A DNA stretch of 43,587 nucleotides. Source: Escherichia phage K1G. The DNA is taken from the sequence record NC_027993.1, one strand, 5' to 3'. Positions within the stretch are counted from its first letter, which is position 1. Every line of letters starts with the position of its first letter. A program made the translations under genes and the position numbers. Under the pieces are notes generated by a model. That model was not told where the DNA came from. It did no database searches and was given only the letters and a program-made list of their open reading frames with translations. This document shows positions 4,320 to 19,311 of the stretch, one piece after another.

Positions 4320-4324
4320 ACTGA

Positions 4325-4344
4325 AGCCCCGAAAGGGGCTTTTT
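4325..4344 (+). terminator. rho-independent terminator
   Basis: AGCCCC-GAAA-GGGGCT hairpin followed by TTTTT. Confidence 0.7.
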
Positions 4345-4408
4345 AGTGCCTGTGATTATTCCAGTTATTCCACTCAATTGTAAATGTTGGAATAAACTAT
4401 TCGAATAG

Positions 4409-4437
4409 TTGACTTTTCACCAAAAATGTGCTAAGCT
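4409..4437 (+). promoter_or_regulatory. sigma70-like promoter TTGACT-N17-TAAGCT with TGn extension; -35 overlaps 16-bp perfect palindrome AACTATTCGAATAGTT (4395-4410)
   Basis: hexamers and spacing read directly; -10 is weak (3/6) but preceded by TG. Confidence 0.45.
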
Positions 4438-4617
4438 CCACCTGAGCTTGTGAAGTATGAACAAGCGACCGCGGCGCGGGCAGGTAACGGAGCGGGACGT
4501 AAGTCCTGAGTGTAGTTACGCTGACGCGTTCGGAAGGGCCATAGTCTATCGCTTGTGTAAAAAAGTAACTGGTTTACTGAGATTACGCCGTTTCTATGTT
4601 TAAATGATAAGGACTAG

Positions 4618-4640
4618 CGCCCCGCTTTATGGCGGGGCTT
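4618..4640 (+). promoter_or_regulatory. leader hairpin GCCCCGC-TTTATG-GCGGGGC (possible attenuator or processing site) just upstream of spanin RBS
   Basis: 7-bp GC stem followed by short TTTA; same hairpin in reverse orientation at 36779-36798. Confidence 0.4.
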
Positions 4641-4662
4641 TACTTATCGAGAAAGGAGAAAC

Positions 4663-5049
4663 ATGAATCTTAACGCAACTGTCGTAGCAGGAGCATGTTT
4701 CATCCTCCTGACATACGGCTACGGAATCTACCAGTATCGCAGCGGCTGGAACGAAGGCCGGGCGAATCTCGTTTCGCAGCAACAGCAGAAAGCACAGGCT
4801 GAGTTAGCGAAGAAAACACAACGGCAGCAGCAGGATGAATCAAAGGCCGCAGCCGCTGACAACGAAGGCAAGACGAAATCAGAGGTGATCACACGTGAAG
4901 TCGTTAAGTACATTAAAACGCCTGGTCGCAGCGTGTGCGCTTTTGACCCTGAGCGCGTGCAGCTCAAGTCCCGCGCCGTCGCAAACGCCAATTCCATCCC
5001 CGGATACGACGATGATGCAGCCGCCGTGCAAACTGGCGCCGCCAAGTAG
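4663..5049 (+). CDS. i-spanin (Rz-like)
   Basis: 128 aa; N-terminal TM segment VVAGACFILLTYGYGIY, Gln/Ala-rich coiled-coil periplasmic region; RBS AAGGAG; embedded out-of-frame lipoprotein ORF. Confidence 0.65.
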   Translation: MNLNATVVAGACFILLTYGYGIYQYRSGWNEGRANLVSQQQQKAQAELAKKTQRQQQDESKAAAADNEGKTKSEVITREVVKYIKTPGRSVCAFDPERVQLKSRAVANANSIPGYDDDAAAVQTGAAK

Positions 5050-5158
5050 CGACGCTGACGAGGATTTAGCTGCCGACGTCCGGAACGCCGAATGCGCACG
5101 GCAACTGCGCCTGAAAGTATTCCAGTTGCAGGATTATGTGAGGAATATTCTGGAATAG
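4895..5158 (+). CDS. o-spanin (Rz1-like lipoprotein), GTG start, +1 frame embedded in and extending past i-spanin
   Basis: signal peptide with lipobox LTLSAC, proline-rich mature region; RBS AGAGGTG upstream of GTG. Confidence 0.65.
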   Translation: MKSLSTLKRLVAACALLTLSACSSSPAPSQTPIPSPDTTMMQPPCKLAPPSSDADEDLAADVRNAECARQLRLKVFQLQDYVRNILE

Positions 5159-5240
5159 TTGCCTTGCATGTTGGAATAATTTATTCTTGACATGTAAATC
5201 CGGGTGGCCCGGGTTCCAACGTCCAGGGGACATACTGACT

Positions 5241-5942
5241 ATGAATCGTTTTTTACGTTATCCGTTCCAGGAAGAAGCTGGAGCAGAAGATAAATCAGGC
5301 GGCGGTGACGCACCTAAAATGTACACAGCCGAAGAAGTGCAGGCGCTGATTGAGAAAGAAGTCGCCGGGCTTAAGGCTAACCAGGAAGCATTGCTGAACG
5401 AGAAGAAAGAAGCCGCTCGTAAAGCAAAAGAGGCCGAAGAAGAGCGGCAGCGTGCACACCAGGAGGCCCTGAAAGCCGCCGGTAAGATGGACGAGTTCGA
5501 AAAGACGATTCGTAGCCAGTATGACCCGGTGTTAGCCGAGAAAGATGGTCGCATCTCCAGAATGGCAGAGCGCATCCTCGGCAGCGAACGCAAAGCGGTG
5601 TTAGGTTCTTTCGCGGGTGACTTCATTACCCCGGAAGCAGTAGACATTCTCGCGCCGTTCGTTAAGACTGAGTTTGAAGGTGATGATGTGGTTACTAAGT
5701 TTGTCGGCGCGGATGGCAACGTAGTCACAACTGACCCGGAACAGTTCCGCAAATACCTGCGCGAACATAAAGCGTTTTCGCATTTGATTAAAGCAAATGC
5801 AGCTTCCGGCGGCGGGGCTTCCGGTAGCAAAGGCGGCGGGGCCGCACCAGCGTTTAAAGACATGAGTGAAGCAGAGCGTTTAGCCCTGTATAAATCGAAC
5901 CCTGCCGAATTTGAACGGCAACTTAAAGCCCTGAGGAAATAA
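5241..5942 (+). CDS. scaffolding protein
   Basis: Ala/Glu/Lys-rich coiled-coil protein immediately upstream of major capsid gene; RBS AGGGGA before ATG at 5241 (track ORF begins further upstream at 5187). Confidence 0.55.
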   Translation: MNRFLRYPFQEEAGAEDKSGGGDAPKMYTAEEVQALIEKEVAGLKANQEALLNEKKEAARKAKEAEEERQRAHQEALKAAGKMDEFEKTIRSQYDPVLAEKDGRISRMAERILGSERKAVLGSFAGDFITPEAVDILAPFVKTEFEGDDVVTKFVGADGNVVTTDPEQFRKYLREHKAFSHLIKANAASGGGASGSKGGGAAPAFKDMSEAERLALYKSNPAEFERQLKALRK

Positions 5943-5944
5943 TA

Positions 5945-6994
5945 ATGGCAATTACCACTATCGGCGATATCGTAACTGGCAACATCCCGGTCCTGGCGTC
6001 TTATATGACCGAGGACCCGGTAGAAAAAACCGCGTTCTTCCAGTCTGGTATTCTGACCCCGACTCCGTACGCTGCCGAGATTGCTCGCGGTCCGTCCAAC
6101 GTCGCCAACATTCCTTTCTGGAAAGCGATTGATACTTCTATCGAGCCTAACTACTCGAACGATGTTTATCAGGACATCGCTACCCCGCGTAATGTGCAGA
6201 CTGGCGAGATGATGGCCCGCGTTGCGTACCTGAACGAAGGTTTCGGTCAGGCGGACCTGACTGTCGAACTGACCAGCCAGAACCCTCTGCAATCCGTAGC
6301 GTCCCGTCTGGATAACTTCTGGCAGCGTCAGGCACAACGCCGTCTGATTGCTACCGCGCTCGGTCTGTACAACGACAACGTAGCTGCTACCGATGCTTAC
6401 CATACGCAGAACGATATGGTTATCGACGTGTCCGCTACTCTGGGCTTCGACGCAGGTGCGTTCATCGACGCCACTCAGACTATGGGCGATGCTCTGATGG
6501 GTAACGGTGGTGAGGTGCTGGGCGCTATCGCGATGCACAGCTTCGTTTATGCACAGGCGCGTAAGCAGCAGCTTATCGACTTCATTCGCGACGCTGACAA
6601 CAACACCATGTTTGCTAGCTACCAGGGCTACCGTGTGATTGTTGACGACAGCATGACCGTAGTCGGCACCGGCCCGAGCCGTAAGTTCATCTCCATCATC
6701 TTTGGCAACGGTGCCATCGGTTATGGTGAAGGCAACCCGTCCAACCCGCTGGAATACGAACGTGAAGCGTCCCGCGGCAATGGTGGCGGCGTTGAAACCC
6801 TGTGGACCCGTAAGACCTGGTTGCTGCACCCACTGGGCTACAGCTTCACCAGCGCGGTAATCACCGGCAACGGCACCGAGACTGTCGCCCGCTCCGCTTC
6901 CTGGCAGGACCTGGCGAACGCCTCCAACTGGAACCGTGTGGTTGACCGTAAGCATGTACCGATTGCCTTCCTGGTAACTGGTGTCGGGGCTTAA
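5945..6994 (+). CDS. major capsid protein
   Basis: 349-aa ORF after scaffold, RBS GAGGA, followed by strong terminator; position and size. Confidence 0.7.
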   Translation: MAITTIGDIVTGNIPVLASYMTEDPVEKTAFFQSGILTPTPYAAEIARGPSNVANIPFWKAIDTSIEPNYSNDVYQDIATPRNVQTGEMMARVAYLNEGFGQADLTVELTSQNPLQSVASRLDNFWQRQAQRRLIATALGLYNDNVAATDAYHTQNDMVIDVSATLGFDAGAFIDATQTMGDALMGNGGEVLGAIAMHSFVYAQARKQQLIDFIRDADNNTMFASYQGYRVIVDDSMTVVGTGPSRKFISIIFGNGAIGYGEGNPSNPLEYEREASRGNGGGVETLWTRKTWLLHPLGYSFTSAVITGNGTETVARSASWQDLANASNWNRVVDRKHVPIAFLVTGVGA

Positions 6995-7010
6995 GGTTAA
7001 GATATAATCG

Positions 7011-7037
7011 AGAGGGACTTCGGTCCCTCTTTTCATT
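7011..7037 (+). terminator. rho-independent terminator
   Basis: AGAGGGAC-TTCG-GTCCCTCT hairpin (UUCG tetraloop) followed by TTTCATTT. Confidence 0.7.
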
Positions 7038-7053
7038 TACTAAGAGGTAAATT

Positions 7054-7353
7054 ATGGCTAAGACCGGAAAAGGCTTGCCTCGCAGCCTTCAGAATGTCGA
7101 CTTCGGCGACTTTGACATCCCAGTAACGCCGGCTACTACCAGCGTAGTTGGTGGGGTTAAAAAGTCAGCTACTGTAGCCGCCCCCGCGGCCATTACCGCT
7201 GCCGCCGGGTCGCAGTCCGCTGCGGACCCGACTAAGACCGAGTTCGATGCCCTTGTAGCCGAGTACAACAAACTTCGAACTGATGTAACCGCGCTGCGCA
7301 CTACCGTAGCAAATCTGTTGACTGCGCTTAAAAATGCAGGAACTGTAAGCTAA
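7054..7353 (+). CDS. hypothetical structural protein
   Basis: 99-aa ORF with RBS AAGAGG; in head gene block. Confidence 0.5.
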   Translation: MAKTGKGLPRSLQNVDFGDFDIPVTPATTSVVGGVKKSATVAAPAAITAAAGSQSAADPTKTEFDALVAEYNKLRTDVTALRTTVANLLTALKNAGTVS

Positions 7354-7365
7354 AGGAGCTTAAAA

Positions 7366-7716
7366 ATGGTTGATGTAATCAAACGTCGTATTACTGGTGT
7401 TTCTGATGATTCTCCTGCCGATGGTCAGGTTGAAATCGATATGGCGAATATCTCGCCCGCATCTTTTTCTACCGCACTTGCCGCTACCACTACCAAGTCT
7501 ACGGGGCAGACGATGACCCTTACTGTAGCCGTAATCGGCGGTCTGGCCCCGTACACATACCAGTGGTACAAAGATAACAACGCTATCCCTGGCGCTACCG
7601 CCGCCACCTACGAGAAAACTTCGCTCGCTACTACCGATTCCGGTACGTATAAAGTGGTTGTTCACGATGTGTATGGTAATATTATCTCCAGCAGCACTGT
7701 AGCAACTGTGTCTTAA
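7366..7716 (+). CDS. Ig-like domain protein
   Basis: RBS AAAGGAG; motif APYTYQWYKDNNAI...SGTYKVVV paralogous to C-terminus of 3858..4319. Confidence 0.5.
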   Translation: MVDVIKRRITGVSDDSPADGQVEIDMANISPASFSTALAATTTKSTGQTMTLTVAVIGGLAPYTYQWYKDNNAIPGATAATYEKTSLATTDSGTYKVVVHDVYGNIISSSTVATVS

Positions 7717-7752
7717 TACAACGGCCCTTCGGGGCCGTAATAAGGAAAGGTC

Positions 7753-7932
7753 ATGGCAGATAATTATGTAATCCGCGAAAAGTACACCCACGTTGATATG
7801 GTTGATGGTCAGGTGATACCCGTGCGCGGTGTTGTAGAGGCGGATGAGCTGGTTGCAACCCAACCGGACAGCGAAGAAGCGCACAACAACGGCGGTGGGA
7901 CTAAACGTCGTCGCCGTAAGTCTGAGGAATAG
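7753..7932 (+). CDS. small hypothetical protein (59 aa, below ORF-track cutoff)
   Basis: ATG preceded by AAGGAAAGG RBS and by hairpin ACGGCCC-TTCG-GGGCCGT (7721-7738); basic C-terminus. Confidence 0.4.
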   Translation: MADNYVIREKYTHVDMVDGQVIPVRGVVEADELVATQPDSEEAHNNGGGTKRRRRKSEE

Positions 7933-7986
7933 TAATATCTGGCGTAGTGGTATAATGAATCCATCCTCCATTGAAAAGGGTGAATC

Positions 7987-8736
7987 ATGAACTACGCCAA
8001 AATCTATGAACAGTTAATATCGAACGCAAAAATCAATCCGTTTAGTGGGTATACCGAAAAACATCACATAGTCCCGAAATGCATGGGTGGTGGGGATACT
8101 TTTGACAATATTGTATCTTTGAGCGCTAGACAGCATTTTATTGCGCATTGGCTTCTCTATAAGATACACGGGACTAAAGAACTAGCTTTCGCCTGGAGGG
8201 TTATGTGTATTAACCCTAAAAACAATCAAAGGTCAAAAGTTAACTCACATTCCTTTAAGTTGGCGAAAGAGGCTTGGGCTATAGAGATGTCCAGGTTGAA
8301 TACTGGTGTTAAATTTTCTGATAAACGTATAGAAAATCTCAGACAAGCACATCTAGGGCAAAAGGCGTGGAATAAAGGAATTGCTACCGGGGAAACTGCA
8401 AGTAGAAAAGCCAGAATAGAGCATTACATGGCGAACCCACAACGATGTGTAACATGCGACCAGCCGATCCACTACCGTTTTAAATCACGAGCGCGTAAAT
8501 ATTGCTGCAAGAAATGCCAGTTCGCGGACCCAAATAGAATCGTTGGCAAGGTTAATAGAAAACCTAACTCCGGAAGTTTTAAGAAGGGCCATACGTTAAA
8601 GGGCGAGACTGTCAAGAAAATTTCAGATAAACTTACTGGAATGAAACGCCCGCGCGGGGTATGCCCACATTGCGGAACCGAAGGGGCGCTATCTCTTCTA
8701 AAGAGGTGGCACTTTGATAACTGTAAGAAGGGGTGA
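7987..8736 (+). CDS. HNH endonuclease
   Basis: motif HHIVPKCMGGGDTFDNIVSLSARQHFIAHW (HNH His-Asn-His core) plus C-terminal CxxC pairs; RBS AAAAGGGTG. Confidence 0.8.
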   Translation: MNYAKIYEQLISNAKINPFSGYTEKHHIVPKCMGGGDTFDNIVSLSARQHFIAHWLLYKIHGTKELAFAWRVMCINPKNNQRSKVNSHSFKLAKEAWAIEMSRLNTGVKFSDKRIENLRQAHLGQKAWNKGIATGETASRKARIEHYMANPQRCVTCDQPIHYRFKSRARKYCCKKCQFADPNRIVGKVNRKPNSGSFKKGHTLKGETVKKISDKLTGMKRPRGVCPHCGTEGALSLLKRWHFDNCKKG

Positions 8737-8739
8737 AAA

Positions 8740-9252
8740 GTGTCCTTAACCGTAGAAACAGGTCAAATTATAGAAGGGGCCGATTCGTACATCTCACTGG
8801 CTGACGCCCGCGCGTTAGCGGCTAATTACGGTCTTGAGTTACCTGCCGACGACACTGACGCCGAAGTAGCTCTGCGTAATGGTGCTGCTTATGTCGGGCT
8901 CGCCGAAACGCAGATGTGCGGCCGCCGTGTATCCGCCGAACAGTCTCTGGCGTATCCTCGCACTGGGGTAACGTTAAACGGATTCCCCGTAGCTAACAAC
9001 GTCATCCCGAAGCAGGTAATTCTTGCGCAGGTAATTGCTGCTGTTACCTATGGCGCGGGTACTGAGGTGCGGGCTAACTCAGACGGGCGTTCCGTGCAGA
9101 CTGAGCGTGTCGAGGGTGCGGTGACAGTGACCTACTTCAACAACGGCAACAGCGGGGCTACAACTGCTATTACCGCTGCGGACGACGCTTTACGCCCGTT
9201 ACTGTGTGGCGGTCTTAACAACGGCTTCTCATTTAATGTGTACCGGGGTTAA
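8740..9252 (+). CDS. head-tail connector-region protein (function by position only), GTG start
   Basis: 170-aa ORF between head and tail blocks. Confidence 0.5.
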   Translation: MSLTVETGQIIEGADSYISLADARALAANYGLELPADDTDAEVALRNGAAYVGLAETQMCGRRVSAEQSLAYPRTGVTLNGFPVANNVIPKQVILAQVIAAVTYGAGTEVRANSDGRSVQTERVEGAVTVTYFNNGNSGATTAITAADDALRPLLCGGLNNGFSFNVYRG

Positions 9253-9254
9253 AA

Positions 9255-9701
9255 ATGGCGAAGACTAAAACAGAGATATTTACGCTAATCGGGTCCGAGC
9301 TACCTGACAACACGACCGGGAAAATTACACCAGCTAAATTGCGTGGCGTACTTACGCAGATGGCCGACTCGCCTATTTACACCACTCCTGGGGTGAAAGA
9401 GGTCGAAGTTCTCCGCGCTGCGTCGACCATAGCGCAAGCGCCGACCGCGGTAGATACAGCATTGCAATTAACTTTCGGCTCCGCTAAGGGAAGTGCATCT
9501 GACCCGGTAATGATTAATGCCGCAGGGCTGGTTACGTTCAACACCGCAGGTAACTACGCCGCTCGCATCAAGTTACAGGCGGGGCGTACTGGCGCTAGTG
9601 GGACATCAATCCTGCTATCACGTATTTTAGTAAACGGTGCTCAGTACGGCTCTCCCGCAGCAACTAAGCTGGTAAGCGCGGACGTGACCCATCCCGATTG
9701 A
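9255..9701 (+). CDS. hypothetical structural protein
   Basis: 148-aa ORF; followed by a 260-bp stretch lacking an annotated gene in which the +1 frame stays open. Confidence 0.5.
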   Translation: MAKTKTEIFTLIGSELPDNTTGKITPAKLRGVLTQMADSPIYTTPGVKEVEVLRAASTIAQAPTAVDTALQLTFGSAKGSASDPVMINAAGLVTFNTAGNYAARIKLQAGRTGASGTSILLSRILVNGAQYGSPAATKLVSADVTHPD

Positions 9702-9870
9702 ATCCCGCGTCGTTATTAACCCCGCAGCAGGCCAGACGTTTGCCGTTCAGATTATGCGGGATGGTGCCGGAAGCAACTTCGGCGGCGTGTACCCACAAGC
9801 CGCTACCGTAACAGCATGGGGCACAGCACCGTCCGCGCTACTGGTTATTTCGAGACTGGAGGCCGCTTGA
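9688..9870 (+). other. stop-free +1 frame segment downstream of 9255..9701 (possible frameshifted C-terminal extension, pseudogene fragment or small unannotated gene)
   Basis: 60 sense codons reading ...INPAAGQTFAVQIMRDGAGSNFGGVYPQAATVTAWGTAPSALLVISRLEAA with no RBS-linked start; overlaps upstream stop at CCC GAU UGA. Confidence 0.3.
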
Positions 9871-9964
9871 TGAATAAGTTCACATGTGGTGTAGTTTTTG
9901 GTTTTCTTACCGCGGTAGTCTTGCACAGTTACGGTGTTCTTTTGACGCTGCAAGAGGTGCTAAA

Positions 9965-10324
9965 ATGAGCACCGCTTTCAGTAAACGTATGCAAGGCGTG
10001 GGTACGCGCCTGCTAACCAAATTCGGTAGCACGGTATCTCTGATTCGCGCTGGTTCAAAAGTATGGGATGAAGTTCTCGGTGAGTACGTATGGTCTGACG
10101 ATGAAGTGTTGCCGTTGAAGGCCGTTCCGGTTCCGGTAAACGCGGGACTGGTAAATGGTATGACGATTCAGGCCGGCGACATGATTGTTAAAGCTGATTG
10201 CAGTGTCGTTCCGAAGATGGAAGACAAGGTGCAATTCGGCGGCGAGCAATGGTCCATCGTAGCTATTGAGAAGAAGATGGTTAACGATGACGTCGTGGCG
10301 TACTTTATTCAGGTGAGAAAATGA
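9965..10324 (+). CDS. hypothetical head-tail joining protein
   Basis: ATG at 9965 with RBS GAGGTG; track ORF 9884 extension upstream is not protein-like. Confidence 0.5.
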   Translation: MSTAFSKRMQGVGTRLLTKFGSTVSLIRAGSKVWDEVLGEYVWSDDEVLPLKAVPVPVNAGLVNGMTIQAGDMIVKADCSVVPKMEDKVQFGGEQWSIVAIEKKMVNDDVVAYFIQVRK

Positions 10325-10716
10325 GTTTCGCGCTCGATGTCTCTAAGTTCGTGGAAAAGGCGAAGAAGAACCCTGAGAAGGTGATGCGTCAGGTGTCTAT
10401 CAAGCTGTTTTCCGCTATCATAAAGGCGAGTCCGGTAGACACGGGCCGCTTTCGTATGAACTGGATGGCATCTGGCGGTACTCCTGCTTCCGGGATTACG
10501 GACGCTACGGATAAATCAGGAAACACAGCAACCGGAAACGCTACGAGTTTCGTGCTGAAAGCCGCTGACTGGCATGAGTTCACGCTGACAAATAATCTGC
10601 CGTATGCGCAACGGCTGGAGTATGGTTGGTCGCAACAGGCGCCAGCCGGGGTTGTCAGGACTAATGTGTCTCGCTTCCAGCAACTCATTAACGAAGAAGC
10701 CAACAAGGTGAAATGA
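10321..10716 (+). CDS. hypothetical tail-associated protein
   Basis: ATGA start/stop overlap with upstream gene; in tail block. Confidence 0.55.
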   Translation: MSFALDVSKFVEKAKKNPEKVMRQVSIKLFSAIIKASPVDTGRFRMNWMASGGTPASGITDATDKSGNTATGNATSFVLKAADWHEFTLTNNLPYAQRLEYGWSQQAPAGVVRTNVSRFQQLINEEANKVK

Positions 10717-11129
10717 TGGGCTACTTTGAGGACTTAACAAAAGCGTTCGATGTTCCGCTGGTAGCCTTCGGAACCGCCAACGGCATCAAGGTCGCGCTTG
10801 AAAACATCGACGCGCCGACGTCAACCGATACGCCATATCTGGCAAGTTACATGTTACTGGCGGATACCGAGCAAGCAGATTTGTTCTTCACGGAACAACG
10901 CGCGGGTGTTTATCAGGTCGACATTAACTACGCATCGGTGAAAGGTAGCGCGCCAATCAATAAAATGGCAGACTTACTTAACACGGCATTCAAAGCAGGT
11001 AAGTCATTTTCTCGTAACGACATCTGCGCCGAGGTTCAATCGGTTAGCCTGGGGCCGCTGATTGTAGAAAACGGATGGGCCAAACGACCATTGTCAATTA
11101 ACTTTATTGCATTCACCAAGAGGCTGTGA
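10713..11129 (+). CDS. hypothetical tail-associated protein
   Basis: ATGA overlap with upstream gene. Confidence 0.55.
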   Translation: MMGYFEDLTKAFDVPLVAFGTANGIKVALENIDAPTSTDTPYLASYMLLADTEQADLFFTEQRAGVYQVDINYASVKGSAPINKMADLLNTAFKAGKSFSRNDICAEVQSVSLGPLIVENGWAKRPLSINFIAFTKRL

Positions 11130-11131
11130 AT

Positions 11132-12298
11132 ATGGCTACAACTCCTTTTAAGGGCGCGAATACTGCGCAATTCTATGTGGCAGAAACTACCCCTGGCGTA
11201 ACACCGACTAACCCGGTCTGGTCGCCATTGCGTAACACAGGTGGCGTTCCTGCCATTACCCGCGACACGCTGACCTCCAACGAACTGGACGGCAGCCGTG
11301 AAACTACGTCAATCCGCACCGGTAACAAGCAGGTTAGCGGAGAATACGCTATTGAGCTTAGCTCGAAAAGCCAGGACGACTGGCTGGCGGGTGCTTTAGG
11401 CTCTACATGGCAATCCGGTAGTTCTCTGACCGGGCTATCAATTACCGTCGCGCCTGCAGACAAGACCTTTACCCGTGCCGAAGGTAGCTTTATTTCTGAC
11501 GGCGTTGAAGTGGGCGACCTGATTGCGTTTACCGACTTAACCGGTGACAACGCAAAACCGTTTATCGTAACTGCAGTAGAGGCGCTGGTAGTGACCGGGG
11601 CGGGTATCCAGCATACCCTGACCACAGAGACAGTAACTACCGCCGCTAAGACAGGGGATAAACTGGAAACGGGAAGCCAGTGCAAGACGTTCTCTATTCT
11701 CACCTGGTACAAAGGCCAGTGCGGCGGGACTGACGCGTACACACTAACCAAAGGCGTGGAAGTTTCTGGTTTTACCATCGAACAGGCTGTTAACGCTATG
11801 GTAACTGGCAGCTTCCCGTTCATCGGTCGCAGTCAGGAGATTCTCACCACGCAGCCGTCTGGTTCTGATTTCTCCTCTGTTACGTTTGGTGACGAGCCAT
11901 TCTCCTCGGTCGATGTTTCTGTGTTCGACGGTTCTACGCCGTTGCGTTGCGACAGCCTGACCATCACCAACGACAACAGCGCGTCCGCACAGTTCGAACT
12001 CGGCAACACTAACGTAGCGTTTGTGGAGCGTAGCCGAGCAGCTAACACCTTCTCCATCTCCGGTAAGCTGTACGACATGGCGATGATTCAGAAGTTTATC
12101 AACGAGCAGCAGGTGGAGATTAACTCTATTCTGGCGGGGGTAAACGGGGCTATGTCTTTCAGTTTGAAACGTGCAGAACTTACGGCGGTTACACCTGAGA
12201 TTGGAGGACCTGAGTCAATCACTCAGTCTATTGAAGGCCAGGCTACCGGCAACCAGTACCAGTCGTCTATTGTTATTCAGCGTATCACATACGCATAA
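11132..12298 (+). CDS. major tail protein (by position)
   Basis: 389-aa Thr/Ser/Gly-rich protein upstream of chaperone and tape measure genes, followed by strong terminator; RBS AGAGG before ATG 11132. Confidence 0.55.
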   Translation: MATTPFKGANTAQFYVAETTPGVTPTNPVWSPLRNTGGVPAITRDTLTSNELDGSRETTSIRTGNKQVSGEYAIELSSKSQDDWLAGALGSTWQSGSSLTGLSITVAPADKTFTRAEGSFISDGVEVGDLIAFTDLTGDNAKPFIVTAVEALVVTGAGIQHTLTTETVTTAAKTGDKLETGSQCKTFSILTWYKGQCGGTDAYTLTKGVEVSGFTIEQAVNAMVTGSFPFIGRSQEILTTQPSGSDFSSVTFGDEPFSSVDVSVFDGSTPLRCDSLTITNDNSASAQFELGNTNVAFVERSRAANTFSISGKLYDMAMIQKFINEQQVEINSILAGVNGAMSFSLKRAELTAVTPEIGGPESITQSIEGQATGNQYQSSIVIQRITYA

Positions 12299-12302
12299 AA
12301 CT

Positions 12303-12328
12303 AAGGCCCCGTTTGGGGCCTTTTTCTT
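12303..12328 (+). terminator. rho-independent terminator (convergent junction)
   Basis: AAGGCCCC-GTTT-GGGGCCTT hairpin then TTTCTT; reverse complement of the hairpin at 24829. Confidence 0.7.
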
Positions 12329-12881
12329 ACAAACCTAATCTTAAAGCAATGCCTATAGCGTTCGATTTAACGTAACCCGGTATGATGTAGGTGTCATAAT
12401 CTTTTACACCATCAATATCGTACAGGTAACCGCGGCTGTCCCCTTCAAACGTATGGCCGTCTCTGTGCAAGCGGACGATTCTCACATCATGCCCTGCGGC
12501 AACGATAGGGGCTACTTCGCTGGCGAACCCGCCATCAGACACCACAAAAACTTCGTCGCCGTCGGGCAAGTTTCCGGCAAGATACTTACCGAAATAATCA
12601 TCACCGAATACCGGTTTAATGAATTGCTCGGAAATGGCAATCATTAACTGACGCCGAGACAACCCGTTAAGGAAACCCTCTGGCTTTTCTTTCCGCGCCC
12701 GGTCGTCGTAGCCGTCGAGAAACTCGCGGTAAGCATCCTGGCCTAACGCAGCCATAGCAATATTGAACATCGGATTCTTGAAACTGGCGACACCCTTCGC
12801 AAAGCCCATTTCTACCAGCGCCCTAGCAAGTGTGTCTTTCCCGCAGCCCGCAGGACCATTAAGAATAATTACCTTAGCCAT
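12327..12881 (-). CDS. P-loop nucleotide/polynucleotide kinase (dNMP-kinase-like or Pnk-kinase-like)
   Basis: Walker A GPAGCGKDT near N-terminus; 184 aa; start overlaps stop of upstream HAD gene. Confidence 0.75.
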   Translation of the reverse strand: MAKVIILNGPAGCGKDTLARALVEMGFAKGVASFKNPMFNIAMAALGQDAYREFLDGYDDRARKEKPEGFLNGLSRRQLMIAISEQFIKPVFGDDYFGKYLAGNLPDGDEVFVVSDGGFASEVAPIVAAGHDVRIVRLHRDGHTFEGDSRGYLYDIDGVKDYDTYIIPGYVKSNAIGIALRLGL

Positions 12882-13366
12882 TATTTATCACTCCCATGTG
12901 GTTTTAAGTGTGTAGAGTTCCCGTTACAGTCGTATTCAGTAACTGCGTGAGTGGTTATGCCGAGTTCGCGGAAATGCTTTATTACCGCTGGAGAGTCGTC
13001 GAATGCACACAAGATTCTCTCCGGCCCAATAGCACGCAACACCTCTTCTTTAATTACGATGTCTTTTCTGTTGTCGTGTTTGCTGCGCATGATTAACTGA
13101 TAAAATTCGACGCGGTGGCGCTGCAACCACATTCTGGTTTCTTTTTCCGCGTCATCACTACGGCCTGTTAAGATAATAACGGCATAGCGACGATTAAGGG
13201 CGTTACACAGTTCGATGTTATCTTTAATGGGTGCATCGTCTTTGCACGCCATGTTAAATGGTTTCCACGCCCAGGTTTCGCCGTAGTTATCTTTCGGCAG
13301 CAGGTGTAAACGATGAGTACCATCTGCCAATGTCCCGTCTAAATCGAAAATCACAATATCTTTCAT
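12881..13366 (-). CDS. HAD-superfamily phosphatase (polynucleotide 3'-phosphatase-like or 5'-nucleotidase-like)
   Basis: HAD motif I FDLDGTLAD, motif II ILTGR, motif IV AFDDSP; 161 aa. Confidence 0.75.
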   Translation of the reverse strand: MKDIVIFDLDGTLADGTHRLHLLPKDNYGETWAWKPFNMACKDDAPIKDNIELCNALNRRYAVIILTGRSDDAEKETRMWLQRHRVEFYQLIMRSKHDNRKDIVIKEEVLRAIGPERILCAFDDSPAVIKHFRELGITTHAVTEYDCNGNSTHLKPHGSDK

Positions 13367-14493
13367 CCAAGCATCTCCGGTGAAATAGTTAAACGTGCGA
13401 CCTCGCCATATTCGGCGCTATAAGTAATTACGTTTGCGCTACGGCCTGACATCCACCCGCCGCGGGAAGCATATGCATCTTTCGCCGCTAAGGTGCGATG
13501 TTGCTCAACAACCATGTTACGGCTTTCTACAATCTTTTGGTGGTGGAGATGCCCGACATGTGCGTAACTGTACTCGCTTTCGCCGAACGCTTTGCGGAAC
13601 TTGGCGATCATAACCGGTTCGATAGCATCGAAGCGTGCTTTATGGCCGTGGTGAAAGAACAGCGTAGTTTTGCCGTGTTGCACCATCTTGTAAACATCCG
13701 GCGACGTATCGACGAACACACGCGGCTCATTGTCGTACAGCGTACTAAACATCTCAGCTAACCAAATCATTCCGCTTTCGTCGTGGTTACCTTGCACAAT
13801 AAGCAAGCGAACATTTTTATGCTTAACAAGGGCCATATCAACGACACGGCGGACCATACGAATCATGTAGCGGACCAGTTTCTGATAGCGCGTGTCCGCA
13901 TCGAGAACATGACCACTTGCCGGTGTAACGGCGTCCAGACTATCGAAATGCGCAAGGTCGCCCAGCAGATTAATAACTCCTGTTCCGGCATCCGGTGCTT
14001 TCTGGAACGCTGCGTCGAACCAGCGGGAGAACAGGTCTTCCGCAATCTTCATGTCCCAGTCGTCGCCGCTCTCGTCAGCCCAGGCCAGCATACCGAGATG
14101 GAAATCAGACACAGTGTAAAGGTTGAGTAGCTTGTCGTCTCGTTTGGCGCGAACGGCTTTAACAGGTGCAACTGGTGTAATCTCCGACTTCATGCCTTCG
14201 ATTACGGCTTTCATCAATTCAACCTGACGTTCGGCATCGGTGTCGGTCTTAACCCATTGCAACTTGGTGTTGCCAAACTCATCCACCAGTGATGACGTTC
14301 CTTTAATCTTGTAGCCGTCCGGTACAAGGTAACTAACGTCACGCCCGTGGCCTACACCTTTCTTAGCCAGCTTCGCTTTACGGATACGAATAACGCGGTC
14401 GGAGATGCCGTATTTACGGGCGATGTCGATATTCTTCATACCGGCGTTCAATTCTTCCTGTAACTGTTCGTCGGTTATTTTCTTCCTGGCCAT
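13363..14493 (-). CDS. calcineurin-like metallophosphoesterase with N-terminal HTH
   Basis: motifs DFHLG, GDLAHFD, GNHDE, GHLHH in order; N-terminal segment NIDIARKYGISDRVIRIRK HTH-like; RBS GAGGAA. Confidence 0.75.
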   Translation of the reverse strand: MARKKITDEQLQEELNAGMKNIDIARKYGISDRVIRIRKAKLAKKGVGHGRDVSYLVPDGYKIKGTSSLVDEFGNTKLQWVKTDTDAERQVELMKAVIEGMKSEITPVAPVKAVRAKRDDKLLNLYTVSDFHLGMLAWADESGDDWDMKIAEDLFSRWFDAAFQKAPDAGTGVINLLGDLAHFDSLDAVTPASGHVLDADTRYQKLVRYMIRMVRRVVDMALVKHKNVRLLIVQGNHDESGMIWLAEMFSTLYDNEPRVFVDTSPDVYKMVQHGKTTLFFHHGHKARFDAIEPVMIAKFRKAFGESEYSYAHVGHLHHQKIVESRNMVVEQHRTLAAKDAYASRGGWMSGRSANVITYSAEYGEVARLTISPEMLG

Positions 14494-14530
14494 GCTTATT
14501 CCTCGTGTTTAGGATTTGTCCTATACTAGC

Positions 14531-14722
14531 TCACTTCTCTTTGACATTCGAGTTGCACGCCCAGATTAAGATAAATACCCACGGCAGCAGAACCCAACCA
14601 AGAAACAGATTAGCCATGAATATCGCTAACTTCGCTTTATGGTTACGGAAGTACGCAACCAGGAAAGGCGCGAAATAAGCGAGCAGTGCAAACAGAATTA
14701 AGGAAACTGGTAAACTGGACAT
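14531..14722 (-). CDS. small 2-TM membrane protein, superinfection-immunity-like (Imm-type motif)
   Basis: 63 aa from ATG 14722 (RBS AAGGGG; track ORF starts 15 nt upstream); motif RNHK...NLFLGWVLLPWVFILIWA recalled as typical of Imm_superinfect family. Confidence 0.5.
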   Translation of the reverse strand: MSSLPVSLILFALLAYFAPFLVAYFRNHKAKLAIFMANLFLGWVLLPWVFILIWACNSNVKEK

Positions 14723-14752
14723 TTTAAACCCCTTCATTGTTGGTGTAAGTGA

Positions 14753-14781
14753 ATAGTACCCTATTATATTGGGGTGTGCAA
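14753..14781 (-). promoter_or_regulatory. early-type promoter TTGCAC-N17-TACTAT (family 2) driving the antisense cassette
   Basis: minus-strand sequence cTTGCACaccccaatataatagggTACTATtcac nearly identical to + strand promoter at 37043; contains AATAG-N4-CTATT. Confidence 0.5.
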
Positions 14782-14889
14782 GTAATGTGATAGAATAAGT
14801 TTGCGCCTAGTGTCGCACACGAAAAGCGGGTGGTTCCCGTCTGGCGCATTTATCGTTAACCTGTAACCTCTTAACCAAAGGATTAAAGA

Positions 14890-15306
14890 ATGAAACTTTC
14901 TGATTTTTATTTCGAAGAGAAAGCACTGGTAGGCAAGAAGATGCCCATTCTGCTGCCAAACGGCGAAGACTCCGGTGAATGGCTTAACGTTGTAAGTCCC
15001 GATGCGGATGTCGCCGTTAAAGCGGGGCGTGCTTTCATTATTGCGTACCGTCGCGGGTTGGCGCGTTTCGAAGAACTGGAAAAAGCCGCCAAAGAATCCG
15101 GCGACTATACTGAATATAACCTGGCTATTAACGAACTGGCGGAAGACCTCAACCGGCAACTCGCGGCAGAAGTCGTAAACGGCTGGAGCTTTGATGAGCC
15201 TTTCTCTAAAGAAGCATTTAACAAATTGCTGGACCAGTTCAAGGCATTAGGCACACAGGTAGCAGCGTTCCATAACGCTGAGCGCAAAGCATTACAGGAA
15301 AAGTAG
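14890..15306 (+). CDS. tail assembly chaperone (G-like)
   Basis: 138-aa acidic ORF immediately upstream of tape measure gene; -1 frame ORF overlaps its 3' end. Confidence 0.55.
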   Translation: MKLSDFYFEEKALVGKKMPILLPNGEDSGEWLNVVSPDADVAVKAGRAFIIAYRRGLARFEELEKAAKESGDYTEYNLAINELAEDLNRQLAAEVVNGWSFDEPFSKEAFNKLLDQFKALGTQVAAFHNAERKALQEK

Positions 15307-15671
15307 ACGCGCTGTACAGGTTCGCCACCTATGAGTTTGTGGATAAGCATAAAATCAGAGAGTTTGATTCTATAGCCGACGGACACGAACAGGCGCTTAT
15401 CGCGATGGGTGTAATCGATAAGAAAAAACGTGCAGCGCGACGGGGTGGGCCAGAATGCCCGCCCCTTTTTATATCCACCTTCGAGACGTACTGCGACATT
15501 AAGTTTACGCGACACGTGCGCGAGGACGCTGTAGTATTGTTCGCAAGAGAATCCGTTACGTGGCAAGACCTGAAAGCCTATCTCGATGTTACGCAAAAAC
15601 AGCTTAGCCTGTTCGAGATAGACATTATCATGGGCTTAGAAGCAATCTTTGAAGGTAGAAATCATGGCTGA
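14890..15671 (+). CDS. putative G-T fusion via -1 frameshift near 15298-15304
   Basis: -1 frame is open from 15282 to 15671 and overlaps tape measure start; slippage candidate GAA AAG UAG (Lys tRNA AAG to AAA next to stop). Confidence 0.4.
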
Positions 15672-17937
15672 TACCGCTAGCTTGATCGTACGAGTATCAT
15701 CGACCGGCGTCGATAAAACCACATCACAACTGAACGGGCTTACCAAAGCCGCGGGGGCCGCCGCCGCTGCCGTTGTCAGTCTGGAAACTGCCAAACAGGT
15801 GTTCAGTGCGCTGGTGGACTCCCAGCGCAACTTCGATAAGCTGAACTCCGGCCTCATCACAATGACCGGGAGCGCCGAGAACGCTGCTAAGGCATTCAGC
15901 GTCCTGCAACAGTTCGCAAAAGAAACTCCGTATGGCCTCAATCAGGCGGTAGAGGGGTTTACCAAGCTCGTGGCGCTAGGTCTTAACCCCAGCAAAGAGG
16001 CGTTAATATCCTACGGCAACACCGCCGCAGCTATGGGCAAAGACCTTAACCAAATGATTGAGGCAGTTGCCGACGCCAGTACATTTGAATTTGAGCGCTT
16101 AAAAGAGTTCGGTATCAAGTCTTCCCAACAGGCGGATACAGTTTCGTTTACGTTCCGTGGCGTAACGACCACGGTTAAAAAGAACTCCGAAGAGATTCAG
16201 AAATACCTGCTAAATATCGGTAACACTGATTTCGCCGGAGCGATGGAGACGCGCTCGAAGACCTTAGATGGTCAGTTATCTAGCCTGGCGGACTCCTTCG
16301 ATGGTCTTGTTCTTGCGGTAGCGCAATCCGGTTTTGGCGACGCGGTAGGCGAACAAGCGGCAACAGCGGAAGATGCTATCACCGCACTCACCGACGCCAT
16401 CGCGTCCAATGAGATCTCCGCCACGCTCCAGGATTGGGTGACACTGTTCAATGAGTCGTTCAAGTTTATTTCTGATGCCCTGAATGACCTGGCATTCGAT
16501 ACCGAGGACAAATCCGTTGATATGTCCGACTCGCTGGGGGATATACCGGATGCCATCCGTGAGTGGTTGCCGGATATCCAGCAGACATTCCACGAGGTTA
16601 TTGCGTGGTTCCAGCGCATTGACGACTACGCGGTAGCGTTAGGCCAGACCCTTGCTGATGTGTTTGACCCGAGCAAAACGTCGGCGCTCACATTTAAAAA
16701 ACTGACTGCAGAGGCTGATGCCGCATACGACGCCAGTATAAAACGTGCAGAGGCCGAATCCCAAGCCATTACCGACAGGTCTAAGCAGCGTAAGAAAGAA
16801 ATTGAGGAACAGCGCAAGCAGTACGACGAGCGTAAGAAGCAAGAAATTGACTTAGCCAGCCTTGTTAATAAAAAGGGCGGAACTGGTGGGGTGGGGACAA
16901 CCGACGATAAAGCAGCAAAAGCCGCCGCCAAGAAAGCAGAGCAATTGCGGAATCAGGCGCAAGATTACCTCGACACTTTGGCCCGTCAGAACAACGACGA
17001 GTTAAAGGCTATCGACGCGCAGGAACAGCAGAAACTGGCTAAGGCAAAAGAGTTCTACAGCCAGGGCGCGTTGTCCCTGAAAGAATATGAACAAGCTAAA
17101 ACAGCTATCGTCCTCGAAGCCGGGCAAAAACGACAAGATGAACTGGATAAACGCCAGAAAGAAGCCCAGGAAAAGCAACAGAAAGGTGACGACTTCATGG
17201 CTCAGATTATGGGCCAGAACGCTACTGAGCTTGAGCTTCTCGACATCCAGGAACAGCAGAAGCTGGCGGTAGCAGATAAGTACCGTGAGCAGGGACTTAT
17301 TAGCGAGAAGCAGTATCAGGCCGCGCTTAACGCCATCAACGAGCAATACGCCACCAAGCGCGCCGACGCAACGGCAACCGCCTTCGGTAACATGGCCTCA
17401 AACATCGGGTCTGCGTTGGGTGAGGCTTCCGGCGCGTACAAAGCATTCGCTATTGTGCAGGCCACTATCGCCACGTACACCGCGGCTATTGAGGCGTACA
17501 AGTCTACGGCGGCTATCCCTGTTGTTGGCCCCTTTCTGGCTCCTGTAGCCGCTGCCGCTGCCGTTGGGGCGGGTATGGCGCAGATTTCCGCTATCAGGTC
17601 AGCACGTGAACAGGGCGGTCAGTTATCCGCGGGGCAGGCTTCTACTATCGCTGAACGTGGTAAACCCGAAGTTATCATGCCCGCTGGCGCATCGCGTGTG
17701 CGCACTGCACAGCAGATGAAAGAAATTATGGGGCAAAACGGGTCTTCCTCCGGCCCATCTAATGTTACCATTGTAAATAATACATCGAGTCAGATTGGCA
17801 ACGTATCCACCGAGCAGGATGATGAAGGCCGTCTGCGTATCATCATAGAAGAGCAAGTTGCTGCATCTTTGCAGAACAGCAACAGTAAGATTAGCAAGGC
17901 CCGCAAGGCCACAAGAAACGCGCCGGGGTTTAAATAA
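15649..17937 (+). CDS. tail tape measure protein
   Basis: 762 aa, Ala/Gln/Glu/Lys-rich coiled-coil, located after G/GT. Confidence 0.8.
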   Translation: MKVEIMADTASLIVRVSSTGVDKTTSQLNGLTKAAGAAAAAVVSLETAKQVFSALVDSQRNFDKLNSGLITMTGSAENAAKAFSVLQQFAKETPYGLNQAVEGFTKLVALGLNPSKEALISYGNTAAAMGKDLNQMIEAVADASTFEFERLKEFGIKSSQQADTVSFTFRGVTTTVKKNSEEIQKYLLNIGNTDFAGAMETRSKTLDGQLSSLADSFDGLVLAVAQSGFGDAVGEQAATAEDAITALTDAIASNEISATLQDWVTLFNESFKFISDALNDLAFDTEDKSVDMSDSLGDIPDAIREWLPDIQQTFHEVIAWFQRIDDYAVALGQTLADVFDPSKTSALTFKKLTAEADAAYDASIKRAEAESQAITDRSKQRKKEIEEQRKQYDERKKQEIDLASLVNKKGGTGGVGTTDDKAAKAAAKKAEQLRNQAQDYLDTLARQNNDELKAIDAQEQQKLAKAKEFYSQGALSLKEYEQAKTAIVLEAGQKRQDELDKRQKEAQEKQQKGDDFMAQIMGQNATELELLDIQEQQKLAVADKYREQGLISEKQYQAALNAINEQYATKRADATATAFGNMASNIGSALGEASGAYKAFAIVQATIATYTAAIEAYKSTAAIPVVGPFLAPVAAAAAVGAGMAQISAIRSAREQGGQLSAGQASTIAERGKPEVIMPAGASRVRTAQQMKEIMGQNGSSSGPSNVTIVNNTSSQIGNVSTEQDDEGRLRIIIEEQVAASLQNSNSKISKARKATRNAPGFK

Positions 17938-18437
17938 TGAGCGACTTATATTTCCCACGTAGCCTTAAGCCGGTGGTGTCGAAAGGCTATTCGATGACCA
18001 GACGCAACAACGTCTGGAGTGTTGATTTAGCTGGCGGCGGTGTACGTCAGGGGCGCGACACGTATTACGACGTGTTCCCGATAAGCGTAACCCTGATTAC
18101 CTCAGCGCTGGGGCGTCAGGCGTTTCTGTCGTTCCTCGAAAAAGTCGATGGTGGTGCGTCAAGTTTCTGGATGGCGCATGACTTCGGCATGGGTATTCAG
18201 GATTACCAAGTAACAATCACGTCAACCATCGCAGAGTCCACAGAAGACGGCATTAACTGGACGATTACTTTCACGGCAACCGCCGAGAAGTCACCGTTCC
18301 AGGACCTTGAGAACCAGTGCCTGATTAACAATCTGCCGGATTTGTTTGGTTGCTATGGTGACGGGCTGGGGTGTTTCCTTAAAGCCTACGGAACCGCGCA
18401 ATCAACGTTTCCACGAATTTGGGACCCGATGCAATGA
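17937..18437 (+). CDS. minor tail protein
   Basis: follows tape measure with TAATG overlap. Confidence 0.55.
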   Translation: MSDLYFPRSLKPVVSKGYSMTRRNNVWSVDLAGGGVRQGRDTYYDVFPISVTLITSALGRQAFLSFLEKVDGGASSFWMAHDFGMGIQDYQVTITSTIAESTEDGINWTITFTATAEKSPFQDLENQCLINNLPDLFGCYGDGLGCFLKAYGTAQSTFPRIWDPMQ

Positions 18438-18949
18438 GTCAGGAATCAGTAGAAGCAGCCTACCGCCGTAAGCTGGCGTCGAACCCAGATGGTGAGATGG
18501 ACTACATCACGTTGCAAATCAGCCACCCGTTGCTGTCAAAGACGTATTATCTTGTGCGCGGGCTACAGGAACTTACGGCAACACTGGAGACAGGCGAAAC
18601 AATAACATTCGAGCCAACCCCGATGGAGGCGTCGGGCGCGGCTAACAACAGTGACATGGACCAGACGACCACGTTTACTCTACCGGATATCCTCAATCAA
18701 CTTGATGATGAGATGGATAAAATCCCGATGAGTAACACCGAGTTGCCGAAGTTCGTATTTCGCCGTTACGTCAGCACCGACCTGTCTTACCCGGCTGACG
18801 GCCCGGTCGTGTACGAGTTACAGGCCATCAACCAGGAGAATGGCGAGTTCTCCGCAGATGTTGGTACACCTATGCTGAACCAACGAAGCACTGGTATACT
18901 GATGACACCTAAAGAGATACCGTTATTACGCGGCCTGTTGACCACATGA
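18434..18949 (+). CDS. minor tail protein
   Basis: ATGA overlap with upstream gene (track start 18419 is TTG). Confidence 0.55.
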   Translation: MSQESVEAAYRRKLASNPDGEMDYITLQISHPLLSKTYYLVRGLQELTATLETGETITFEPTPMEASGAANNSDMDQTTTFTLPDILNQLDDEMDKIPMSNTELPKFVFRRYVSTDLSYPADGPVVYELQAINQENGEFSADVGTPMLNQRSTGILMTPKEIPLLRGLLTT

Positions 18950-19311
18950 ATATTAACGACTACACGGGCATACCTTACGACTTTCGCAAGCGCAATTGCT
19001 GGCATCACGTGCGCATTGTCCGCGCGGATGCCGGGTTAGAAACCCCGGCGTTCGACGTCACAAGCCCAACGGCAATTAATGAAGCGTTCGACGAAGGACA
19101 TCGCAACACGAAGGGGCTTACGAAAATAGATAAGCCTGAAAACTTCTGTGCGGTGCTTATGGGGTATCGCCGTGGTGGTCGTATCGTGTGGCACGCAGGA
19201 GTATACTTCGACGGGATGGTTAGCCATTGCGAGCTTGCTTCTCGTCAGGTACGGCTTGACAGGCTGGCGGACCTCAGAGACACGTACACGGAGATTGAAT
19301 TTTGGCGATAA
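18946..19311 (+). CDS. tail assembly protein (gpK-like position)
   Basis: 121 aa with conserved Cys/His (RKRNCWHHV ... HAGVYFDGMVSHCE) suggestive of NlpC/P60-like fold. Confidence 0.5.
   Translation: MNINDYTGIPYDFRKRNCWHHVRIVRADAGLETPAFDVTSPTAINEAFDEGHRNTKGLTKIDKPENFCAVLMGYRRGGRIVWHAGVYFDGMVSHCELASRQVRLDRLADLRDTYTEIEFWR

What the first reader, a model, noticed from the sequence alone, without database searches (positions are those of the whole stretch)
9688..9870. Gap in the head-tail gene block with an open +1 frame continuing past the stop of ORF 9255..9701
The structural genes are otherwise tightly packed with overlapping stops and starts, but 9702-9964 has no annotated gene. The +1 frame is stop-free from 9688 to 9870 and encodes protein-like sequence with no RBS-linked start; the upstream gene ends at CCC GAU UGA, where a +1 slip would join the frames. 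This could be programmed recoding, an inactivating frameshift or a sequencing indel.
Basis: seen in the sequence. Interest (0 to 1): 0.4.

Follow-up and report, generated by a model that had tools for sequence, protein, structure and literature searches.

The report
One-base frameshift splits phage neck-module gene
One extra C in the genome record of coliphage K1G splits a conserved 204-residue virion-module gene into two reading frames; this is an ordinary broken gene or a sequencing slip, not a programmed ribosomal frameshift.

Summary
ORF 9255..9701 stops at TGA 9699-9701, and the +1 frame is open from 9688 to TGA 9868-9870. The window is Escherichia phage K1G (Kagunavirus). The 148-aa product is GenBank ADA82259.1.

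In relatives the two pieces form one 615-nt, 204-aa gene (phrog_3614). K1G has 616 nt because of one extra C in the run CCC at 9688-9690. Removing one C restores a protein that matches the family profile end to end (E 1.8e-109). A Logan contig that is 99.6% identical to K1G encodes exactly that protein, and in this gene it differs from K1G only by that C. Two IMG/VR contigs with the same local sequence also read CC.

The +1 segment shows strong purifying selection (dN/dS 0.02-0.09). It encodes the last three strands of a C1q/TNF-like jelly roll. I found no frameshift stimulator.

Programmed recoding is therefore not supported. What remains is a genuine recent loss-of-function insertion or a homopolymer error in the deposited record, and reads are needed to decide between them. 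I lean towards a real mutation. Sister phage K1H carries a 387-bp in-frame deletion of the same domain, and two other assemblies carry independent deletions, so the gene is dispensable and is lost repeatedly. Interest is low.

The parts
9255..9701 (+). 5' part of the disrupted gene. It encodes residues 1-144 of the family protein, then three out-of-frame codons (H-P-D) and the premature stop TGA at 9699-9701. This is GenBank ADA82259.1 / YP_009168795.1, 148 aa.
9688..9690 (+). The CCC run that carries the one extra base. Relatives, including a 99.6%-identical contig, read CC or an equivalent two bases here.
9691..9870 (+). 3' part of the same gene, displaced into the +1 frame. It encodes residues 145-204 (IPIESRVV...LVISRLEAA) and ends at the stop TGA 9868-9870. 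It contains the last three beta-strands of the C1q/TNF-like domain and the conserved residues R168, G172, G176 and W188.
9870..9968 (+). 32-codon hydrophobic ORF (MNKFTCGVVFGFLTAVVLHSYGVLLTLQEVLK). Its ATG overlaps the TGA of the +1 segment, and its own TGA overlaps the ATG of the next gene. A GGAGG lies at 9858-9862.
8740..9252 (+). Upstream neighbour: head-tail adaptor Ad1 (phrog_477; Pfam DnaT_2).
9965..10324 (+). Downstream neighbour: head-closure / Neck1-type connector protein (phrog_17193, phrog_161).
9438..9449 (+). Left copy of a short imperfect direct repeat, GCGCCGACCGCG. The right copy is GCACCGTCCGCG at 9826-9837. These two copies flank the 387-bp in-frame deletion seen in sister phage K1H.

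Best explanation
A single-base insertion (CC to CCC at 9688-9690) splits a conserved 204-codon gene of the head-tail connector module. The gene encodes an N-terminal segment of about 45 residues followed by a C1q/TNF-like jelly-roll 'knob'. As written, the record encodes a 148-residue product that lacks the last three strands of the domain, so the domain should not fold. The remaining 60 codons sit untranslated in the +1 frame. I take this to be most likely a genuine, very recent loss-of-function mutation in the K1G stock, tolerated because the knob domain is dispensable for growth on the laboratory host. Shown by the data: the insertion, its uniqueness to this record, the intact orthologues, and the dispensability of the domain (the K1H deletion). 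Inferred: that the extra C is in the phage DNA rather than only in the record, and that the protein sits on the neck.
For: The gene is 615 nt and 204 aa in all five relatives I inspected. The top 120 homologue clusters are 187-237 aa, mostly 204 or 205. In the phage collection, 513 of 535 matching records cover at least 80% of the protein, and all 60 sampled rows are a single piece. All sampled DNA hits are one base shorter than the window across 9600-9800. Deleting one C gives a protein that matches phrog_3614 over 1-204 of 204 positions, E 1.8e-109. That exact protein is encoded on contig SRR28381660_699, which is 99.64% identical to the window over 15.4 kb. Within the gene the extra C is the only difference. 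The +1 segment has dN/dS 0.016-0.092 against five relatives. The AF2 model has pLDDT 90 and a jelly roll spanning residues 46-204. Its best Foldseek matches in the PDB are BclA, Caprin-2 C1q, 4-1BBL and a phage spike knob. For a real mutation rather than an error: K1H, from the same series of GenBank accessions, has a 387-bp in-frame deletion that removes residues 66-194 of the same gene. Two unrelated assemblies carry a 375-bp in-frame deletion and a 145-bp out-of-frame deletion in it. This is the only frame break inside an annotated gene when the whole window is compared with K1ind1 and fTaEco03, so the record is not generally error-ridden. The depositors annotated a -1 fusion product in the very next gene, which suggests they attended to reading frames.
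Against: No reads and no independent K1G sequence were available. The 148-aa product occurs on a single contig, the GenBank record itself. The lesion is a one-base length change in a homopolymer, which is the typical error of pyrosequencing-era assemblies. The other one-base difference from the 99.6% relative is also in a homopolymer (A6 versus A7). The gene carries no other change, so nothing shows that the break has persisted over evolutionary time. The family is under strong purifying selection in nature.
Confidence: 0.55

Rival explanations
1. Sequencing or assembly error. The phage really has CC and an intact 204-codon gene, and the deposited record over-calls one C in a homopolymer.
For: The extra base lies in a C run. 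It is the only difference in the gene from a 99.6%-identical contig. Two IMG/VR contigs with the same 37-nt context read CC. The gene is conserved and under purifying selection. The downstream translational-coupling overlaps are intact. The second one-base difference from the same relative is also a homopolymer length change. The record dates from about 2009-2010; this date is from memory, and the sequencing method could not be checked.
Against: A random error has only about a 1.4% chance (616 of 43,587 nt) of landing in the one gene that is independently deleted in sister phage K1H and in two other assemblies. No other frame break was found in annotated genes of the window. A run of two or three bases is a weak error context. 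The paper that describes the genome was not available.
Confidence: 0.38
2. Programmed or functionally relevant +1 ribosomal frameshifting. Ribosomes slip within ACC CAU CCC GAU UGA, most plausibly tRNA-Pro moving from CCC to CCG, and make a full-length protein (...VTHPIESR...).
For: The frames overlap by only 11 nt (9688-9698). This stretch contains a CCC-G site at which P-site tRNA-Pro can re-pair in the +1 frame, with a UGA stop two codons later. The shifted product would differ from orthologues by a single residue. Established knowledge: CCC-N is a known +1-prone site in enterobacteria, and Listeria phage PSA uses a +1 shift at a proline codon in structural genes.
Against: The arrangement is unique to this record among more than 350 DNA hits and 535 protein-level hits. 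It is absent from near-identical contigs, so there has been no evolutionary time for a recoding signal to be selected. There is no Shine-Dalgarno-like stimulator upstream. Downstream RNA folds no better than shuffled sequence (z -0.41 and +0.51). The A-site codon GAU is common and the stop is not adjacent to CCC. At best this would be background slippage of about 1% or less; that figure is from memory of the tRNA-Pro/EF-P literature and was not measured here.
Confidence: 0.04
3. Two separate natural genes, or a natural gene end followed by a non-coding spacer.
For: GenBank annotates only the 148-aa ORF.
Against: Every orthologue is a single ORF. The +1 segment has no start codon with a ribosome-binding site. 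It encodes integral strands of one domain.
Confidence: 0.01

Closest known systems
phrog_3614 / Guernseyvirinae 'putative neck protein' (also labelled 'C1q domain protein' or 'complement C1Q-like protein' in some records), e.g. K1ind1 YP_009597294.1 and fTaEco03 QNO11948.1
   Same: Same locus, between the Ad1 adaptor and the Hc1/Neck1 gene. Protein identity is 88-96% once one C is removed. The profile match is full length.
   Different: The K1G record carries a +1 frame break after codon 144. The annotated product is 148 aa instead of 204.
The disrupted allele in sister phage K1H (ADA82306.1, 75 aa)
   Same: Same gene and same series of GenBank accessions. The C1q-like domain is lost while the N-terminal segment and the coupling to the downstream small ORF are kept.
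   Different: K1H has a 387-bp in-frame deletion between short direct repeats. K1G has a one-base insertion.
Programmed +1 frameshifting (E. coli prfB; capsid and tail genes of Listeria phage PSA)
   Same: A short frame overlap close to a stop codon, with a proline codon (CCC) that could re-pair in the +1 frame.
   Different: The site is not conserved. There is no Shine-Dalgarno stimulator or RNA structure, and the stop is not in the A site next to the slippery codon.
C1q/TNF-like trimeric knob domains (BclA C-terminal domain 1wck; phage phi812 central spike knob 9eul; Caprin-2 C1q 4ous)
   Same: The predicted fold of residues 46-204 matches these (Foldseek E about 4e-6, target-normalised TM 0.6-0.77).
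   Different: Sequence identity is only 12-16%. Trimerisation and location on the virion were not tested.

Membership tests
phrog_3614 (Guernseyvirinae 204-aa neck-module protein) | Full-length match to the family profile | tested here: met
As written in the record, the match is split over two frames.
phrog_3614 (Guernseyvirinae 204-aa neck-module protein) | Conserved position between the Ad1 adaptor gene and the Hc1/Neck1 gene | tested here: met
phrog_3614 (Guernseyvirinae 204-aa neck-module protein) | A single uninterrupted ORF of about 204 codons | tested here: not met
   The window has 616 nt, with a stop at 9699-9701. The remaining codons are in the +1 frame.
Programmed +1 ribosomal frameshift site | The frame arrangement and slippery site are conserved among relatives | tested here: not met
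   All sampled relatives are in frame and one base shorter.
Programmed +1 ribosomal frameshift site | A P-site codon that allows tRNA re-pairing in the +1 frame | tested here: met
   CCC-G at 9693-9696 lies inside the 11-nt overlap. Re-pairing ability is taken from established tRNA-Pro knowledge.
Programmed +1 ribosomal frameshift site | A stimulator: an upstream SD-like element, a slow or stop codon in the A site, or downstream RNA structure | tested here: not met
   There is no SD-like sequence upstream, and the A-site codon is GAU. Fold z-scores are -0.41 and +0.51.
Programmed +1 ribosomal frameshift site | A trans-frame protein product is detected | not testable with these tools
   This needs virion mass spectrometry or a reporter assay.
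C1q/TNF-like jelly-roll domain | A jelly-roll beta-sandwich fold of about 10 strands | tested here: met
   The AF2 model has pLDDT 90. The top Foldseek PDB hits are BclA, C1q and TNF-ligand domains, at probability 1.00.
C1q/TNF-like jelly-roll domain | Homotrimeric assembly | not tested
   Only a monomer was modelled.

The most novel reading that the evidence does not exclude
The CCC allele is real, and the CCC-G site two codons before UGA supports enough spontaneous +1 slippage by tRNA-Pro to supply a small amount of full-length knob protein to K1G virions. That would be an accidental, newly arisen 'leaky' recoding site. A more modest version of the novel reading is that the C1q-like neck knob is repeatedly lost in Kagunaviruses, including both K1-capsule-dependent phages of one study, because losing it is advantageous on encapsulated hosts.
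Probability: 0.06. Interest if true: 0.35.

Novelty: already known. Interest (0 to 1): 0.12.

Why it matters
The main value is for annotation. K1G gp15 (YP_009168795.1, 148 aa) is a truncated version of a 204-aa family protein and should be flagged as disrupted or checked by re-sequencing. It should not be used as a family representative, and it should not be cited as a case of recoding. There is a smaller biological point. This conserved C1q-like protein of the connector module is dispensable and has been lost independently several times (K1G?, K1H and two metagenomic phages). That makes it an accessory virion decoration whose role, for example surface or glycan binding, could be tested with these natural knock-outs.

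Tried and rejected
- Downstream RNA structure as a frameshift stimulator: folds of 9699-9790 and 9660-9760 are no better than shuffled sequence.
- Rfam scan of the whole window: no hit.
- Sequencing method of K1G: the Bull, Vimr and Molineux 2010 paper is not held, either by DOI or as PMC2843586. Two later papers that mention K1G or come from the same group say nothing about this gene.
- Recovering the rest of contig SRR28381660_699 through another K1G protein: one call failed because I gave the wrong coordinates. The corrected call returned other phages only.
- Literature on the virion location of the protein: nothing relevant found.
- Sequence search of the PDB: only marginal hits, E 0.03. 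Pfam: no family above threshold.
- An internal restart for the +1 segment (ATG 9754) was rejected. It has no ribosome-binding site and lies inside a beta-strand domain.

Full report
**Identity of the window.** The window is Escherichia phage K1G (Kagunavirus, Guernseyvirinae).
- The 148-aa product of 9255..9698 is exactly ADA82259.1 / YP_009168795.1, 'hypothetical protein APL43_gp15 [Escherichia phage K1G]', recorded on one contig of 43,587 bp.
- The neighbouring proteins are also K1G entries.
- The closest records in the phage collection are K1ind1, K1ind2 and K1ind3, at 92-93% identity over the first 20 kb. K1G itself is not in that collection.

**The observation.**
- Frame 0 reads ...GAC GTG ACC CAT CCC GAT TGA, with the stop at 9699-9701.
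- The +1 frame has a TGA at 9685-9687. It is then open from 9688 to TGA 9868-9870, so the two frames overlap by only 11 nt.
- The TGA at 9868-9870 shares its A with an ATG at 9870. This ATG starts a 32-codon hydrophobic ORF preceded by GGAGG at 9858-9862.
- The stop of that small ORF (9966-9968) overlaps the ATG at 9965 of the next connector gene.
- The gene packing therefore continues through the +1 frame, as if the +1 frame were the translated one.

**What relatives show.**
- In fTaEco03, ORH_001, Bas71, ST20 and K1ind1 the region between the Ad1 adaptor gene and the next gene is a single 615-nt, 204-codon ORF.
- The window's equivalent is 616 nt. The alignment places one extra base in the window at ACC-C-AT, where relatives have A-CAAT or ACC ATC.
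- Deleting one C of the run at 9688-9690 gives ...SADVT IPIESRVV..., which is colinear with every orthologue. The repaired protein matches phrog_3614 over positions 1-204 of 204, E 1.8e-109.
- A 201-nt query across the site finds 356 phage records. In the 60 evenly sampled rows, full-length matches span 200 nt, so the window is the outlier.
- At protein level, 513 of 535 records cover at least 80% of the repaired protein, and all 60 sampled rows are a single piece.
- The 120 best protein clusters are 187-237 aa, mostly 204 or 205.
- K1ind1 and fTaEco03 ORFs map to the window in two frames that abut at 9691-9695.

**The closest relative.**
- The exact repaired 204-aa sequence exists in a Logan assembly, SRR28381660_699.
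- Its contig is 99.64% identical to window 4445-19870. The differences are 9 substitutions and 3 gaps.
- Within the gene, the only difference is the extra C.
- A pattern search allowing one or two bases at the site found two IMG/VR contigs, and both read CC.
- The break is therefore either extremely recent or not real.

**The +1 segment is functional coding sequence.**
- Against five relatives, its dN/dS is 0.016-0.092, with 15-30 synonymous differences. This is as low as in the upstream part, which gives 0.026-0.140.
- An alignment of 97 family members at 29-73% identity has invariant or near-invariant residues R168, G172, G176 and W188, all inside this segment.
- The AlphaFold2 model (pLDDT 90.1; about 97 for residues 46-204) is a beta-sandwich. 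Its strands are at 47-57, 85-87, 93-95, 101-112, 118-126, 129-139, 143-154, 161-168 and 194-203.
- Foldseek against the PDB returns C1q/TNF-like jelly rolls: BclA C-terminal domain, Caprin-2 C1q, 4-1BBL, C1q head and the phage phi812 spike knob. E is about 4e-6 to 1e-4, at probability 1.00.
- The 148-aa K1G product would lose half of strand 143-154 and both following strands. I infer that it cannot form the domain.
- In distant homologues this domain of about 155 residues is usually the C-terminal end of proteins of 180-1250 aa, as expected of a terminal knob.
- Its placement on the neck rests only on gene position and on database labels ('putative neck protein'). I could not test it.

**Is it programmed recoding?**
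- Within the 11-nt overlap, the only codon that allows +1 re-pairing is CCC-G (tRNA-Pro, CCC to CCG). The product would be ...VTHPIESR..., one residue different from orthologues.
- The A-site codon is the common GAU and the UGA is one codon further on. There is no Shine-Dalgarno-like element upstream.
- Downstream RNA folds no better than shuffled sequence: z -0.41 for 9699-9790 and +0.51 for 9660-9760.
- Above all, the arrangement is not conserved. It occurs in one record and is absent from near-identical genomes.
- A selected recoding signal is therefore excluded for practical purposes. Background slippage on CCC-G cannot be excluded, but it would be incidental.

**Real mutation or record error?** Sequence alone cannot decide this.
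- For an error:
  - The change is a one-base over-call in a homopolymer, in a record that I recall as dating from about 2009-2010.
  - The only other one-base difference from the 99.6% relative is also a homopolymer change, A6 versus A7 at 4559-4564.
  - No independent K1G sequence exists in the collections searched.
- For a real mutation:
  - This is the only frame break inside an annotated gene when the whole window is compared with two complete relatives.
  - The depositors annotated a -1 fusion product in the adjacent gene: ADA82258.1...FIQVRK|MSFALD....
  - Most tellingly, the same gene is damaged in sister phage K1H (GU196278). Its ORF11 is 75 aa, made of residues 1-65 plus the last 10. 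This is a 387-bp in-frame deletion between GCGCCGACCGCG (window 9438-9449) and GCACCGTCCGCG (9826-9837).
  - Two further assemblies carry independent lesions. ERR14846392_582 has a 375-bp in-frame deletion (79 aa). ERR14033286_39076 has a 145-bp out-of-frame deletion (91 aa).
  - The knob domain is therefore dispensable and is lost recurrently. A random sequencing error would have only about a 1.4% chance of landing in this particular gene.
- My rough weighting, which is a judgement and not a computed posterior: about 0.55 for a real loss-of-function mutation, 0.38 for a record error, 0.04 for functionally relevant +1 slippage, and 0.01 for two separate genes, with the small remainder unassigned.

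**Novelty and interest.** A frameshifted accessory gene, or a homopolymer error, in an old phage record is ordinary. The finding corrects an annotation: gp15 of K1G is a truncated phrog_3614 member. It also adds a minor biological note on the recurrent loss of a C1q-like protein of the connector module in Kagunaviruses. Interest is 0.12.

Noticed in passing
L021 (K1H GU196278) 759-986; window 9438-9449 and 9826-9837: Sister phage K1H has a 387-bp in-frame deletion of the same gene. The 75-aa product consists of residues 1-65 plus 195-204. The deletion lies between short imperfect direct repeats, and coupling to the downstream 32-aa ORF is retained.
   Followed up: yes
L022 1201-1440 (ERR14846392_582); L023 1201-1476 (ERR14033286_39076): There are two more independent lesions of the same gene in public assemblies. 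One is a 375-bp in-frame deletion (79 aa) and the other a 145-bp out-of-frame deletion (91 aa). Loss of the C1q-like domain is therefore recurrent.
   Followed up: partly
window 9870-9968: A 32-codon hydrophobic ORF with a single predicted transmembrane-like helix and a strong GGAGG. It is wedged between the knob gene and the Hc1/Neck1 gene with overlapping stop and start codons on both sides. It is present in K1G, K1H, fTaEco03, Bas71 and L008, but absent from K1ind1 and ST20. No family match was found.
   Followed up: partly
window 10316-10324 (junction of 9965..10324 and 10321..10716): GenBank K1G and K1ind1 annotate a 250-aa fusion of the two connector proteins through a -1 slip at AGA AAA UGA (...FIQVRK|MSFALD...). 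phrog_17193 is a 250-position profile that covers both halves. The site is not a canonical X XXY YYZ heptamer, so the arrangement may be either real recoding or simple ATGA coupling.
   Followed up: partly
window 7987-8736, especially 8050-8094: A 249-aa ORF with a weak HNH match (residues 21-45) sits between the head and connector genes and is absent from K1ind1. The 99.6% relative L008 lacks 45 bp that encode YTEKHHIVPKCMGGG, which is the HNH motif itself.
   Followed up: partly
window 4320-4660 (A run at 4559-4564): A non-coding stretch of about 340 nt between the head-decoration and spanin genes ends in a terminator-like hairpin at 4619-4638. It differs from L008 by A6 versus A7. fTaEco03 annotates a 36-aa ORF here. 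There is no Rfam hit.
   Followed up: partly
window 7366-7716: A 116-aa protein with weak Ig-domain matches (Ig_3, Ig_2), annotated in relatives as a Hoc-like head decoration protein. It is another accessory surface-display protein in the same block.
   Followed up: no
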